In this document: one piece after another, positions 38,525 to 63,320 of the stretch
How the letters are laid out: each line of letters opens with the position of its first letter
Position numbering within the stretch: the first letter of the stretch is position 1
NCBI GenBank assembly: GCA_002633005.1
Contig: NMRA01000029.1
Location: forward strand, 574,956 to 638,955
Direction: 5' to 3'
Source: Phoronis australis
Taxonomy: Eukaryota; Animalia; Phoronida
Length of the DNA stretch: 64,000 nt
The notes under the pieces: generated by a model
Databases searched by the model: none
Told to the model about the DNA's origin: nothing
Seen by the model: the letters and a program-made list of their open reading frames with translations, nothing else
Program-made: the position numbers and the translations under genes

Positions 38525-40615
38525 ATGGGTTCGGCGTTACAGATCGTCGTCCTTCTTACGATAGTGTTATTTTGTCAAACTTTTGGAACTTTCGCAGTCT
38601 CTGTTGATCTCTCCAAAGGCAGAGTGAGTGGTATTGGTCCAATTCACGGTAATGGAGTGACTAAATTCTTAGGTGTGCCATATGCAGCTCCACCTACGGC
38701 GTCAAGGCGTTTTGCCAGGCCTGTCGACGTGCCAAGCTGGACAGGTGACTATAATGCCACCTTTCACCGTCCCGTTTGCCCACAGGATTTTCAAGAGTTG
38801 GAACTGGTGGCAGGAGTCGTTCGGGCAAATTTCAACATATCTTATGATCTACCGAAATCGTTTAGCGAAGATTGTTTGTACGTAGATATCTATATCCCTG
38901 GCGAACTGAACAAGACGAGTGCTTTGCCTGTGCTGGTGAATTTTCAGGACTCCTGGTTTCAGACAATTTCTCCGCAATCTCGCGAAGGAAGTCGTTTGGC
39001 TTTACACGGGAAAGTCATTGTGATCAACGTTAATCACCGTTTGGGGGCGCTTGGATTCTATGGAAGCGGTAATTTTGGATTGCTCGACCAAAATCATGCT
39101 TTGGTTTGGATTCAGGAAAACATTGTCCATTTCGGAGGTGACCCGAAGAAAGTCACGATATTTGGGTCCGAAAGTGGTGCATTTTCTGTCGGTCTGCACG
39201 TTCTCAGTCCCTTAAGCCAGGGCCTTTTCTCGAGGGCAATTTCGCAAGGTGGGAATGCGTTGATGACCAAATTTCTCGACACCAAACCAAATCATATGTC
39301 GAATGAGTTTAGTAGGGCTTTGAATTGTTCTGAAAGTGATCTCGTTTGCTTGAGAAACGTGGCTGTTGATAAAATCCTTGAAGTACAGAAGAATTTATCT
39401 GTGCAACACAAGTACTTTTTCCCCGCCGTTGACGGGTCATTCCTTCCAGCCCATCCAGACGTTCTTCTCCATTCCGGAAATTTCAGTAAGGTGGACTACA
39501 TTCTTGGCTTCAATAATGACGCTGGCACGCTTTGGCACCCAGAAACTTTTCTTCAGATTCAATCTGGAATTAATGAAGGTAACTACACAGACAAGCTGAC
39601 GAGATGGGCTTATGAAAAGTTTCAACCAAATGCCGAGGCTCCTTTGGCTTTCCTTCTGTTTGAGTACAGAACAACACTGGACAACTCCCCTCTGTCTCCT
39701 GGTCAAACATGGCTGAAAAGTCTGTTGACTGCTGGTCGCGATGCTACTGCGGCTTCAATGCGCATGGTACAAAGAATGCATAGACGTCATGGAGGCAAAG
39801 TGTTTGCCTATTATTTCAATCAGAGACCAACAGGAGCAAGCTACAGTGCTGACCTTCTATCTGCTCCATCTGGTGTTGAGACGCTGTACTTGTTTGGTCA
39901 TGAAAACGTGTCCCTAAGCAAGCAGATGGCTGAGGCCTGGGGTTCATTTGCAAACAGTGGGTGAGCAGTTAATGTCATCGTTTTCAAAGCCTTTTTGGCA
40001 CAATTCTTAAAAAGCCGAGTGTTCTCACTCAAGCGTGGGTGGCATACCATAGGGGCTGGAAGGGACTGTTGCCTCCCCCACTTATTTCTCTGCTGTGCCG
40101 CCCATGTCAAGTATATGATTGATCGGTTTTAACACCAAAAATTGGGCTTTCCTAACTGTGCAAGGCTGAAGAGTGTTGATAGCATCTGTGACGAAATTCA
40201 TTTCGAGAAATTCGATTAATTTTACTCATTGTTTGTCGCCATGGGGACACAGTTTTAAAAATAATTAAGATTAGTTTTGTAAAATTTCGTTCTTTGAATG
40301 TAGATTCAAAATCATTTAGCTTTCGGAATTTGAGTTGGGTTACTTTTTAAAGACAGTTTAAGCAGCTTCTTAAGTATCGGAAAAATCTAGCAGTAGACGT
40401 ACAGTAGCACAAAATGCTTTACACAATTTTTTGTTGTTTTTCTTCTGCCTAGCTCACCGCAGTTCACAGCCGAAGGCAAAGTCATCACCTGGCCAGAATT
40501 CGAGGCTTCTACTGGTTCATTTCTGGACATCCACAGTGGTATGACTGCTGCAGACATCCGACAGCAATATCCTGGTAGACTTGACAGAAGGATGGACTTG
40601 TGGAGTGATGTTTTG
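38525..40615 (+). CDS. Esterase domain 1 (signal peptide + catalytically inactive COesterase fold)
   Basis: [33 protein letters not shown] present. Catalytic sites altered: FQDSWF for IHGGGF, GSESG for GESAG, GFNNDAG at the acid site, APSGVE at the His site. Confidence 0.85.
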
Positions 40616-61600: not shown

Positions 61601-63320
61601 TTAAGGTATGGTTGTTTAGATTGCAATGTGTATTTGGGGCGGTAAAAATTTTCCTCTTTTTTGTCTTGGGTCATTCCAAGCCCTGGTATAAAGTGTTGTA
61701 AGTCAACAGCCTTTGTTCAAAAAATTTTGTGCAGAATAGGTGAAGTATTGTGGCTGTAGATAGCTTGCTAAATCTTAGAAAAAGAATTTCTCTTACGGCT
61801 CCTTAATTCTCAAAACTTAAAGAAAGAGAGCTAGACGTGGGCGGCATTTTGAATGACAGGCTATGGACCTGCAAACTGAAGAGTTGTATTATCCAAATTT
61901 CTTTTAATGTTATAGAATATGGCTTTAACTACGAGACATACATAGGCATTCCATATGCAGCGCCACCTCTTGGCGATCTCCGTTGGAAACCTCCCCAGGT
62001 CCACAGTGGTTGGTCGGGGGTACGACAGAGTGGGCCCTCTGTCGCATGTCCCCAGTCCTCACAGACGTATATTTTGGATTTTGAACAAGAGACGGAGGAC
62101 TGTCTACAGCTCGATGTTTATGTTCCTTATGGTGTGAAACACTTAAGGTAAAGTGTAAACTAACATTTATTTTGTTTCTTGTCACGCAACAAACCCTTAG
62201 ATGAAGACTAAACTCAAAAACATGTTTTGCACTCACTTGTGGCAAAAGAAATATTTTTTGCCATTATAATAGCAAATTGTTTTTGCATCAAAAATGAGTG
62301 TGCCCAAACCATGAATTGTGGAAAAATTTGACCAATTTATTGACTTGCCTAACCCTCTCTGAAGAGTGCGGGAAGGGCGAGGGAAGCTTCTTGCGTGTAG
62401 TTTAGCGTCCATTGGTCACAAAGTTGATGTCCCATGGGATATTAATCCCTAAAACTGCCTTGAGGTGACGATGTGGTGTCATCATTTCTAAAATGTACTG
62501 GTCTTTTTATACCAGCCTCTAAAAGAGTGTCATAACTAATCAAGTTGTAATCGATTTGTGATGTACGGGTGGCCGATTTCAATATCAATACACTAAGGCC
62601 CATTTCTATTTGATTCTTTATTTTCAATTTCTCCCATTAGGTGTCTTGCAAAGTTATGGCTTGTTTGCATCTTTTGAAGAGTGTTAATTAGATGTTGAAC
62701 AAATAAACAGCTTAGTTTTGTTCGTTATTTGGAATCTTATCATATGAAGAATATTTATTTTGGCAAGCTTAAAATCAATGAAGTGGGAAATTAACCAGTG
62801 CGTAATATTTGAGAAAAGATTGAATTAATTAGACACACAAGAACTGAATCAAAAACAATTAACAGTACTCCTAGCAAGAATCTATGAAATGTGTATTGTC
62901 CCAACCCTACAAAGTGCTGTAGGTTAGATTTTGATGTAAAGACAAAAGTTACTTTAATTTAGAACTAACCTTGCCATGATAGTTGGGTTCATGCTCAAGT
63001 TGTGTGTATGGTCATTACATCGAGAGACAACATGAGGAATAGCCCTAATGAATGTCTTTCTGCTAGCATTTATTGACATGTTTAACATTCAACTTGACTG
63101 TTTTTTACATTTTGTTCGTTTGAATGCTTTCTTTATGTCTGTTTTTTTGAGATCATGATGTTTTCCAGGCATGGGAAGCTCCCTGTAATGGTGTTCATCC
63201 ACGGTGGTGCTTACACTGCTGGGTCTAAGACACTTTATAGTGGCGTGAATTTGATTCAGTACGATGTTGTGTATGTGGCTATTAACTACCGACTTGGAGT
63301 TCTGGGATTTTTGTCATCAG
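38525..63320 (+). CDS. Secreted tandem multi-domain type-B carboxylesterase (at least 4 COesterase domains, at least 1742 aa, 3' end beyond window)
   Basis: Exons 38525-39960, 40453-40615, 42287-42401, 43115-43346, 44139-44290, 45218-45399, 46264-46784, 48350-48535, 49149-49450, 51121-51349, 52298-52449 (or 54600-54751), 53713-53894 (or 56014-56195), 56650-57137, 58104-58307, 59381-59679, 61916-62147, 63169-63320. All GT-AG, phase-compatible and stop-free (5227 nt), with a single signal peptide. Confidence 0.85.
41166..41360. repeat. tRNA-derived (SINE-like) sequence with an upstream inverted partial copy
   Basis: A box TAGCTCAGTGG (41270), B-box-like GGTTTGATTCC, stem CTAGA/TCTAG with 7-nt loop. 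41166-41214 is an imperfect reverse complement of ~41312-41360. Not an intact tRNA. Confidence 0.55.
42287..49370 (+). CDS. Esterase domain 2 (intact triad)
   Basis: [48 protein letters not shown]. Confidence 0.9.
49371..59590 (+). CDS. Esterase domain 3 (intact triad)
   Basis: IPYAEPP, EDCLY, IHGGGF, FGVSAGG, GHSQADG, GGHADET, WTNFA..GNP. Confidence 0.9.
49970..50720 (-). mobile_element. HINE/Helentron-like intronic repeat
   Basis: Recurrent AAGATGGCGG, GGCGGCCATTTTG and GAAACTTGGT blocks typical of such elements; boundaries approximate. Confidence 0.35.
52558..53404. mobile_element. Kolobok-like intronic MITE (duplicate copy ~54860-55706; relatives at ~20560-21080 and ~47900-48295)
   Basis: GTAA|GGTTAATATGTAGGAC ... 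GTCCTAGATAACC|TTAA. Confidence 0.5.
54116..54643 (+). repeat. 6 x 88-bp tandem repeat containing a splice acceptor and the exon start ([11 protein letters not shown])
   Basis: Units start at 54116, 54204, 54292, 54380, 54468, 54556; the last continues into the full exon. Confidence 0.9.
58555..59000. repeat. 17-bp minisatellite, ~26 copies
   Basis: (GGATGCTGCATGTCTCT)n; produces spurious ORFs in all six frames. Confidence 0.97.
59591..63320 (+). CDS. Esterase domain 4 (N-terminal part; continues past window)
   Basis: [43 protein letters not shown]. Exon sizes 232 and 152 nt match domain 2. Confidence 0.88.
60214..61685. mobile_element. hAT-like non-autonomous element with 6-bp flanking duplication
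   Basis: GTATAA|CAAGGCTTGGAA ... TTCCAAGCCCTG|GTATAA. Confidence 0.65.

What the first reader, a model, noticed from the sequence alone, without database searches (positions are those of the whole stretch)
38525..63320. One giant secreted polypeptide of at least four tandem carboxylesterase domains
Seen in sequence: exons 49149-49450 and 59381-59679 each run stop-free from the C-terminal helix of one esterase domain, through a linker, into the first beta-strand of the next ([16 protein letters not shown]). There is only one signal peptide, and 17 exons join in frame for at least 1742 aa. Established: type-B carboxylesterases, cholinesterases and neuroligins normally carry one such domain. Inference: this is a poly-esterase like the tandem-repeat digestive hydrolases (lactase-phlorizin hydrolase, sucrase-isomaltase, phospholipase B1), here built from the COesterase fold. 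Gene finders could split it into several genes. I cannot confirm it is undescribed without a search.
Basis: partly seen in the sequence, partly recalled or inferred. Interest (0 to 1): 0.9.

Follow-up and report, generated by a model that had tools for sequence, protein, structure and literature searches.

The report
Four-domain carboxylesterase chain in one gene
An animal gene strings at least four copies of the carboxylesterase enzyme domain into what is likely one large exported protein; the first copy lacks the catalytic residues, the next two keep them, and it would likely act as a multi-site ester-digesting surface or secreted enzyme, resembling unstudied multi-domain proteins predicted in sharks, sea squirts and other animals.

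Summary
Seventeen GT-AG exons join into 1742 stop-free codons: one signal-peptide-like start, three complete COesterase domains and part of a fourth, running off the window. RNA reads confirm the most doubtful link, D1 tail to D2 (40615>42287, 8 sense reads). The D2|D3 and D3|D4 boundaries lie inside single exons. Their downstream junctions were not listed (49450>51121) or not examined (59679>61916). D1 has lost the catalytic Ser and His; D2 and D3 keep Ser-Asp-His. D2-D4 are repeats of a six-exon, phase-1 module added behind an older, large-exon domain. A 1.8-kb duplicate of exons 11-12 beside an N gap is probably an assembly artefact. The architecture is not unique: 88 of 266 examined hits have 2-6 domains. 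Some are gene merges, but a set with one signal peptide and a C-terminal membrane segment occurs in sharks, tunicates, hemichordates, echinoderms and Lingula. A 2012 survey (recalled, not read) reported multi-carboxylesterase proteins. None of my nine paper searches listed a functional study. The scan's earlier notes held nothing similar. Verdict: real, a lineage-specific variant of a noted but unstudied kind.

The parts
38525..39960 (+). Exon 1 (coding): signal-peptide-like start (aa 1-24) and most of D1, a pseudo-esterase (Glu216 at the nucleophile position, Ser449 at the His position, no HGGG)
   Evidence: (PF00135 2e-96); sense RNA depth
40453..40615 (+). Exon 2: D1 C-terminal strands and helix
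   Evidence: junction 40615>42287 in 8 reads; no depth in run X1
42287..42401 (+). Exon 3: Cys/Pro linker 1 and first beta-strand of D2; ends in phase 1
   Evidence: both flanking junctions seen
43115..43346 (+). Exon 4 (D2)
44139..44290 (+). Exon 5 (D2, oxyanion-hole HGGG)
45218..45399 (+). Exon 6 (D2, GESAG, Ser740)
46264..46784 (+). Exon 7 (D2, acid Asp863)
48350..48535 (+). Exon 8 (D2, His959)
   Evidence: RNA depth only in X1
49149..49450 (+). Exon 9: D2 C-terminal helix, Cys/Pro linker 2, first strand of D3; ends in phase 1
   Evidence: sense depth in 3 of 3 runs, none in the next bin 49475-49873
51121..51349 (+). Exon 10 (D3)
52298..52449 (+). Exon 11 (D3, HGGG), first copy
   Evidence: junction 52449>53713 in 12 reads
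53713..53894 (+). Exon 12 (D3, GVSAG, Ser1264), first copy
54026..54555 (.). 90-N gap followed by five 88-bp stutter copies of the exon-11 acceptor region: probable gap-filling artefact
54556..56326 (+). Second copy of the exon 11-12 block (exons 54600-54751 and 56014-56195), 96.5% identical; probably the other haplotype. Either copy alone keeps the frame; both together break it
56650..57137 (+). Exon 13 (D3, acid Asp1383)
   Evidence: RNA not examined
58104..58307 (+). Exon 14 (D3, His1476)
   Evidence: RNA not examined
59381..59679 (+). Exon 15: D3 C-terminal helix, Cys/Pro linker 3, first strand of D4; ends in phase 1
   Evidence: RNA not examined
61916..62147 (+). Exon 16 (D4)
   Evidence: RNA not examined
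63169..63320 (+). Exon 17 (D4, HGGA); open donor, the gene continues past 64000

Best explanation
This is one spliced, transcribed gene that likely encodes a single secretory-pathway protein of at least four type-B carboxylesterase domains, in which D1 lacks the catalytic Ser and His, D2 and D3 keep Ser-Asp-His triads and are predicted to hydrolyse esters, and D1 would serve a structural role. Shown: the reading frame, the domain content, the active-site residues, expression, and splicing of the D1 tail into D2. Inferred origin: an old gene of the 'one large first exon' subfamily (signal peptide, COE, stalk, membrane segment in abalone) gained a six-exon module bounded by phase-1 introns, which then duplicated in tandem to give D2, D3 and D4; such a module keeps the frame at any copy number. 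Inferred function: a multi-site ester or lipid hydrolase facing a lumen or the outside, probably ending in a membrane anchor beyond the window. The dead N-terminal domain would act as a folding aid, dimerisation surface or spacer, as the pro-region of lactase-phlorizin hydrolase does. The single unpaired Cys after each domain's last helix would form disulfides between domains or chains.
For: Frame and splice sites. Domains. Triad columns. D1|D2 junction in 8 sense reads from 2 of 3 runs, plus the four following junctions with 11, 12, 13 and 9 reads. Exon 9 has sense depth in 3 of 3 runs and the next 399 bases have none, so there is no sign of a 3' end after the read-through stop. Each linker exon carries a conserved first strand of the next domain, and no signal-peptide-like ATG stretch with a consensus donor was found in the 6 introns scanned. 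Exon lengths and phases repeat across D2/D3/D4 (232/229/232, 152/152/152, 182/182, 521/488, 186/204, 302/299). D2+D3 are sisters (0.999, 99.8); D4 is 71% identical to D2 over 146 columns. Differences concentrate at third codon positions. Eight D1-like database entries stop at exactly the exon-1 boundary. Relatives with one signal peptide, Cys-bearing linkers, mixed live and dead domains and a C-terminal membrane segment exist. Lactase layout and pro-fragment chaperone role: passages of PMC6412902.
Against: No read or contig spans more than one junction region. The junctions 39960>40453 and 49450>51121 were not listed, and 59679>61916 was not examined. Run X1 has depth 6.9 on exon 1 but none on exon 2; the tool warns that dips are no finding, and exons 6 and 8 also drop out in single runs. 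Depth is low (0-10 per exon per run), from 3 samples of one study. An in-frame ATG at 50964 with a hydrophobic run lies upstream of exon 10, though inside a repeat read on both strands. No orthologue confirms the architecture: best identities to D2/D3 are 37% or less and a targeted search gave 1 weak hit. The C-terminus, tissue, substrate, processing and D1's role are all unobserved.
Confidence: 0.7

Rival explanations
1. The locus is a tandem array of separate carboxylesterase genes, or makes mainly shorter transcripts, and the long model is a merge.
For: Merges are common: 21 of 88 multi-domain database entries carry an internal signal-peptide-like stretch (e.g. P0001, P0006). Read-through of each linker donor gives an early stop with AATAAA/ATTAAA downstream. 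Two of three inter-domain links lack junction reads. There is an in-frame hydrophobic ATG stretch at 50964.
Against: 40615>42287 is spliced in reads. D2, D3 and D4 would lack a signal peptide and their first strand, which sits in the previous domain's last exon. No depth follows exon 9 in 3 of 3 runs. The 50964 stretch lies in a simple repeat read on both strands.
Confidence: 0.1
2. One polypeptide, but mainly a neuroligin-like adhesion or scaffold protein: the extended ectodomain binds partners, and catalysis by D2/D3 is secondary.
For: D1 is non-catalytic and its best solved-structure match is neuroligin-4 (E 5.8e-60). D1 groups with the dead membrane-proximal domains of the membrane-anchored set (SH-aLRT 94.4). 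Sea-urchin members have both domains dead. Expression is low in the runs laid.
Against: D2 and D3 keep the full triad and oxyanion hole after long divergence (48% identical). D1 does not group with neuroligins in either tree.
Confidence: 0.12
3. One open reading frame, but a polyprotein that is cut at the linkers into free single-domain esterases, so the chain is a device for co-expression.
For: The linkers are short, Pro-rich and probably exposed. Lactase is itself trimmed of its pro-region (PMC6412902 passages).
Against: No paired basic or furin-type site is evident in the three linkers printed. Pro-rich linkers with a conserved Cys suggest tethering. No protein data exist.
Confidence: 0.08

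Closest known systems
Type-B carboxylesterase/cholinesterase family (Pfam PF00135; CES1/2, AChE, BChE, neuroligins)
   Same: Each domain matches PF00135 and has the two disulfide pairs; D2 and D3 have GxSxG, acid and His; D1 is dead, as neuroligins are.
   Different: At least four domains in one frame. The acid is Asp. The first disulfide loop has no Trp in any domain, so the cholinesterase choline site (recalled feature) is missing.
Uncharacterised multi-COesterase type I membrane proteins: Styela clava LOC120335102 (4 domains), sharks Stegostoma LOC125448388, Scyliorhinus, Mustelus (3), Lingula LOC106179609 (3), Saccoglossus LOC100375895, Glandiceps, Ptychodera, Acanthaster, Lytechinus, Diadema (2)
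   Same: One signal peptide, tandem COE domains, a Cys shortly after the last helix followed by a Pro-rich linker, and a mix of live and dead domains. D1 groups with their dead domains in one tree.
   Different: Their dead domain is the last one, here it is the first. D2-D4 are this lineage's own duplicates (37% identity or less to any of them). A membrane segment cannot be seen in the window. These are predicted models, not studied proteins.
Multi-carboxylesterase-domain proteins of invertebrate deuterostomes (Johnson & Moore 2012, PMID 22210164)
   Same: Recalled from the abstract: multidomain proteins made of several carboxylesterase domains in these genomes. Seen here only as a citation on duplication and rearrangement of such genes (PMC12992692).
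   Different: The paper is not held, so I could not compare architectures. As recalled it is a sequence survey without transcript or functional tests.
Lactase-phlorizin hydrolase (and, recalled, sucrase-isomaltase and phospholipase B1)
   Same: Four homologous domains in one secretory-pathway chain, with an N-terminal part acting as intramolecular chaperone and active sites in later domains (PMC6412902 passages).
   Different: Different fold (glycoside hydrolase, recalled); analogy only. Gut location, anchor and processing are not shown for this gene.
Single-domain membrane carboxylesterases of gastropods (Haliotis XP_071103214.1; Gigantopelta XP_041346918.1)
   Same: Best single-domain match to D1 (35%); same group in both trees; the same large first exon ending at the WxxFAxxG boundary.
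   Different: One domain followed by stalk and membrane segment; Haliotis keeps Ser-Glu-His, D1 does not.

Membership tests
Type-B carboxylesterase family (PF00135) | Profile match above the curated cut-off | tested here: met
   exon 1 scores 324 bits; 13 of 17 exons exceed 27 bits; 4 domains in the model.
Type-B carboxylesterase family (PF00135) | Ser-acid-His triad and HGGG oxyanion hole in D2 and D3 | tested here: met
   D2 S740/D863/H959, D3 S1264/D1383/H1476.
Type-B carboxylesterase family (PF00135) | Catalytic triad in D1 | tested here: not met
   Glu at the nucleophile column, Ser at the His column, oxyanion loop replaced.
Type-B carboxylesterase family (PF00135) | Catalytic triad in D4 | not testable with these tools
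   It lies beyond 64000 and no genome is held.
Type-B carboxylesterase family (PF00135) | Measured esterase activity | not testable with these tools
   Needs a bench assay.
Cholinesterases (AChE/BChE) | Trp of the choline-binding site in the first disulfide loop (feature recalled) | tested here: not met
   0 of 4 loops contain Trp; D2-D4 loops have 15-17 residues.
Neuroligins | Single dead COE domain grouping with NLGN sequences | tested here: not met
   D1 falls outside the neuroligin group; the protein has at least 4 domains, two with intact triads.
Multi-COesterase type I membrane proteins (informal set, sharks to Lingula) | One signal peptide and tandem COE domains with no internal signal peptide | tested here: met
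   (hydropathy only; no signal-peptide predictor was available).
Multi-COesterase type I membrane proteins (informal set, sharks to Lingula) | Cys after the terminal helix followed by a Pro-rich linker | tested here: met
   Cys543, Cys1067, Cys1586; compare linkers.
Multi-COesterase type I membrane proteins (informal set, sharks to Lingula) | C-terminal membrane segment with the shared juxtamembrane motif | not testable with these tools
   The C-terminus is outside the window. The motif matched 12 of 27 relatives tested.
Multi-COesterase type I membrane proteins (informal set, sharks to Lingula) | Domain-by-domain orthology (live N-terminal domains, dead last domain) | tested here: not met
   D2+D3 form their own pair, and D1, at the N-terminus, is the dead domain.
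Lactase/sucrase-type tandem digestive hydrolases (works-like comparison) | Several homologous hydrolase domains in one precursor with an inactive N-terminal part | tested here: met
   the single chain is shown by reads only for D1 tail to D2.
Lactase/sucrase-type tandem digestive hydrolases (works-like comparison) | Apical gut expression, membrane anchor, proteolytic maturation | not testable with these tools
   Tissue of the runs is not given; there are no protein data.

The most novel reading that the evidence does not exclude
Animals have repeatedly built large cell-surface 'poly-esterases', the carboxylesterase counterpart of lactase and sucrase-isomaltase, by chaining live and dead COesterase domains through Cys-bearing linkers. 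The class reaches into vertebrates (a three-domain form in three sharks) and has no functional study in the library I searched. This gene is an independent invention of it, with an expandable phase-1 exon module and a dead N-terminal domain as built-in chaperone or dimerisation partner.
Probability: 0.35. Interest if true: 0.75.

Novelty: new variant of a known kind. Interest (0 to 1): 0.5.

Why it matters
Carboxylesterases are treated as single-domain enzymes, and multi-domain database entries are easily dismissed as gene-prediction merges. Here reads show a real splice from one esterase domain into the next, and the exon layout explains how such chains can grow. The search also exposed a conserved, apparently unstudied set of membrane-anchored 2-4-domain esterases across tunicates, sharks, hemichordates, echinoderms and a brachiopod. 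This makes two questions testable: what a dead esterase domain does when tied to live ones, and whether these proteins are a lumenal lipid or ester digestion system. It also matters for counting detoxification genes, since one gene can carry several active sites.

Tried and rejected
No whole genome is held, so the gene could not be extended past 64000. The run search listed no indexed RNA holder; three raw-read runs were offered by species label and laid. Run X4 contigs covered almost only repeats. A word-index search for longer relatives of D1 gave 2 hits among 7996 candidates: a Drosophila two-gene merge and a thyroglobulin-like protein. A search with the D2/D3 middle exons gave 1 weak hit among 7112. 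The linker exon 15 had no meaningful solved-structure match, so the likeness of the linker Cys to the inter-subunit Cys of acetylcholinesterase rests on recall. An AlphaFold job on a two-domain hemichordate relative had not finished; there is no structural result. NCBIfam gave only sub-threshold bacterial hits. The (1/3)^16 frame figure is not used, because splice sites were chosen with homology in view. Real tandem or mutually exclusive use of the duplicated exons 11-12 was judged unlikely: the copy abuts an N gap with stutter repeats, similar overlaps flank single Ns elsewhere, both copies together break the frame, and 22 of 22 reads at 52408 carry one base; mutually exclusive use is not strictly excluded. 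Paper searches listed no study of multi-COesterase proteins; the six exact phrases gave 0 papers. Look-ups in the scan's own notes gave nothing related.
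Full report
1. Observation. Six-frame translation shows type-B carboxylesterase motifs on the + strand from 38525 to 63320. I placed exon ends by reading the sequence and checked them in a script. Seventeen exons, all with AG/GT ends and compatible phases, give 1742 codons with no stop, and the last donor is open. Scanned one by one, 13 of 17 exons hit PF00135 above its cut-off; the four that do not (exons 2, 3, 9, 15) are tail or linker pieces. 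An HMM built from the hits finds three complete domains and the start of a fourth. The only strongly hydrophobic stretch is the N-terminal 25 residues; no signal-peptide predictor was available. The translated part is about 193 kDa with 20 N-glycosylation sequons.

2. Domains. D1 (about aa 25-535) has Glu216 where the nucleophile Ser belongs, Ser449 at the His position and no HGGG loop, so it is a pseudo-enzyme. Its best solved-structure match is neuroligin-4 (E 5.8e-60), but it does not group with neuroligins. D2 has S740/D863/H959 and D3 has S1264/D1383/H1476, both with HGGG. D4 is seen only to its first third. Identities: D1 to the others 31-33%, D2-D3 48%, D2-D4 71%, D3-D4 53%. None of the four first disulfide loops has a Trp, so a cholinesterase role is unlikely (the Trp criterion is recalled). 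Each domain has the two usual Cys pairs, and one extra Cys (543, 1067, 1586) follows its last helix, ahead of a Pro-rich stretch of about ten residues and the next domain's first strand; D3 has one further Cys at 1339.

3. One transcript? No indexed RNA holder was listed, but three raw-read runs with the same species label were offered; 18-19% of each was read. Exons carry reads almost only in the orientation expected for + strand RNA, at depths of 0-10 per exon and run. Listed GT-AG joints: 40615>42287 (8 reads: 6 in X2 from 6 starts, 2 in X3), 42401>43115 (11), 43346>44139 (12), 44290>45218 (13-14), 45399>46264 (9) and 52449>53713 (12). That is 6 of the 11 junctions inside the laid stretches. 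The first is the key one, because only at D1|D2 does an intron separate the end of one domain from the start of the next, and unspliced read-through would stop nine codons later. Not listed: 39960>40453, 46784>48350, 48535>49149, 49450>51121 and 51349>52298; the tables hid 22 and 3 rows and need 3 reads. The five junctions after 53894 were not examined. Exon 9, which holds the D2|D3 boundary, has sense depth in 3 of 3 runs, and the following bin 49475-49873 has none. Against: X1 covers exon 1 at 6.9 but exon 2 not at all; similar drop-outs affect exons 6 and 8 in other runs. No signal-peptide-like start with a consensus donor was found in six introns scanned. An in-frame ATG at 50964 with a hydrophobic run precedes exon 10, but it sits in a simple repeat read on both strands.

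4. Assembly caveat. 52252-54025 recurs at 54556-56326 (96.5%) across a 90-N gap with 88-bp stutter copies. Either copy of exons 11-12 keeps the frame (5 amino-acid differences); both together do not. Similar overlaps flank single Ns at 11791 and 25398. I read this as two haplotypes placed side by side (inference).

5. How it was built (inference). D2, D3 and D4 share exon lengths and phases. The repeat unit runs from just after the first strand to the first strand of the next domain and begins and ends in phase-1 introns, so any number of copies stays in frame. D2+D3 are sisters (FastTree 0.999 on 111 domains, 22 domains dropped beforehand as redundant or merged; IQ-TREE fast SH-aLRT 99.8 on 52 of the 111). 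D1 has a different origin. Its 1436-bp first exon ends at WxxFAxxG, and 8 of 36 relatives printed stop at that same point, as expected for frames called on unspliced DNA. Its best single-domain match, from abalone, is signal peptide, COE, stalk, membrane segment. So the large exon is ancestral, and the gene is a chimera of an old membrane-type esterase gene and a triplicated module.

6. Relatives. A phmmer scan of 1.84 billion representatives and a profile search (120 of 1336 hits listed) gave 266 distinct proteins. Of these, 88 have two or more COE domains (62 two, 19 three, 5 four, 1 five, 1 six). Both rankings favour multi-domain proteins. 21 of 88 have an internal signal-peptide-like stretch and are probably merges; 18 of the other 67 end in a membrane-like segment. 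That last set includes Styela (4 domains, several paralogues), three sharks (3), Lingula (3), three hemichordates and several echinoderms (2), and a six-domain Macrostomum protein. Many share the Cys/Pro linker, and a juxtamembrane motif matched 12 of 27 tested. Their last domain is usually dead. D1 groups with those dead domains in one tree (94.4); in the other the two groups sit apart at an unresolved root, and the Styela last domain changes place between trees. No relative exceeds 37% identity to D2 or D3, so no orthologue of this gene was found. All of these are predicted models whose junctions I did not check.

7. Literature. Eight searches for multi-domain carboxylesterases (listings only) showed no study of them. 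Passages of PMC12992692 cite Johnson & Moore 2012 for duplication and rearrangement of cholinesterase-like-domain genes in invertebrate deuterostomes, and list papers on the thyroglobulin ChEL domain as chaperone and dimerisation domain (titles only). The 2012 paper is not held; from memory its abstract reports proteins made of multiple carboxylesterase domains. Passages of PMC3464141 added nothing on this. Passages of PMC6412902 describe lactase as four homologous domains with a pro-fragment chaperone, active sites in domains III and IV and one membrane pass. Subscription journals, the ESTHER database and supplements were not seen.

8. Mechanism. Most likely a single exported chain carries two or more working esterase sites behind a dead first domain. 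I put the single-chain reading at about 0.85 and the whole picture (multi-site ester or lipid hydrolase with a structural D1) at about 0.7 for its general form; the anchor, tissue, substrate and D1's exact role are guesses by analogy. Rivals are separate genes (0.1), an adhesion or scaffold role (0.12) and a cleaved polyprotein (0.08).

9. Verdict. The feature is real and partly transcript-supported. It is not categorically new, since multi-COesterase proteins are in databases and were noted in 2012, but this arrangement (dead domain first, lineage-specific expandable module) has no found orthologue, and the wider membrane-anchored set appears unstudied. New variant of a known kind; interest 0.5.

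Noticed in passing
proteins P0173, P0175, P0177: Three sharks share a three-domain, single-pass carboxylesterase (two live domains, one dead) with a conserved juxtamembrane motif also seen in tunicates, hemichordates, echinoderms and Lingula; all are named 'uncharacterized' or 'hypothetical'.
   Followed up: partly
proteins P0176, P0003 (Macrostomum lignano): A 3558-aa entry has six COE domains, all lacking the catalytic Ser, in two alternating types, plus a membrane segment.
   Followed up: partly
proteins P0171, P0174, P0178, P0183 (Branchiostoma); P0004, P0010 (teleosts): 2-4-domain CES-like entries, most ending in KDEL/HXEL-type signals, with minimal linkers and similar repeats; could be merges or recent fusions.
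   Followed up: no
proteins P0199, P0113: Two-domain carboxylesterases from apparently bacterial sources (1044 and 1060 aa), so the tandem form may also exist in prokaryotes.
   Followed up: no
window 8978-13961 (+): Exons of an SMP-30/gluconolactonase-family gene (PF08450) with a signal-peptide-like start near 9050.
   Followed up: partly
window 29425-33940 (+): A RING-finger exon followed by long low-complexity open frames (333 and 621 aa) with no Pfam match.
   Followed up: partly
window 11669-11912, 24609-26195, 52252-56326: Near-identical direct overlaps (99%, 98%, 96.5%) flanking N positions: signs of a scaffolded, heterozygous assembly.
   Followed up: partly
window 58554-59004: A 17-bp minisatellite of about 26 copies in intron 14.
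   Followed up: no
window 42035-42092 and 49828-50875: Dispersed repeats in introns that attract many RNA reads from elsewhere; the second is biased to one strand.
   Followed up: no
window 34844-35889: An 823-N gap flanked on both sides by copies of a short tandem repeat unit.
   Followed up: no
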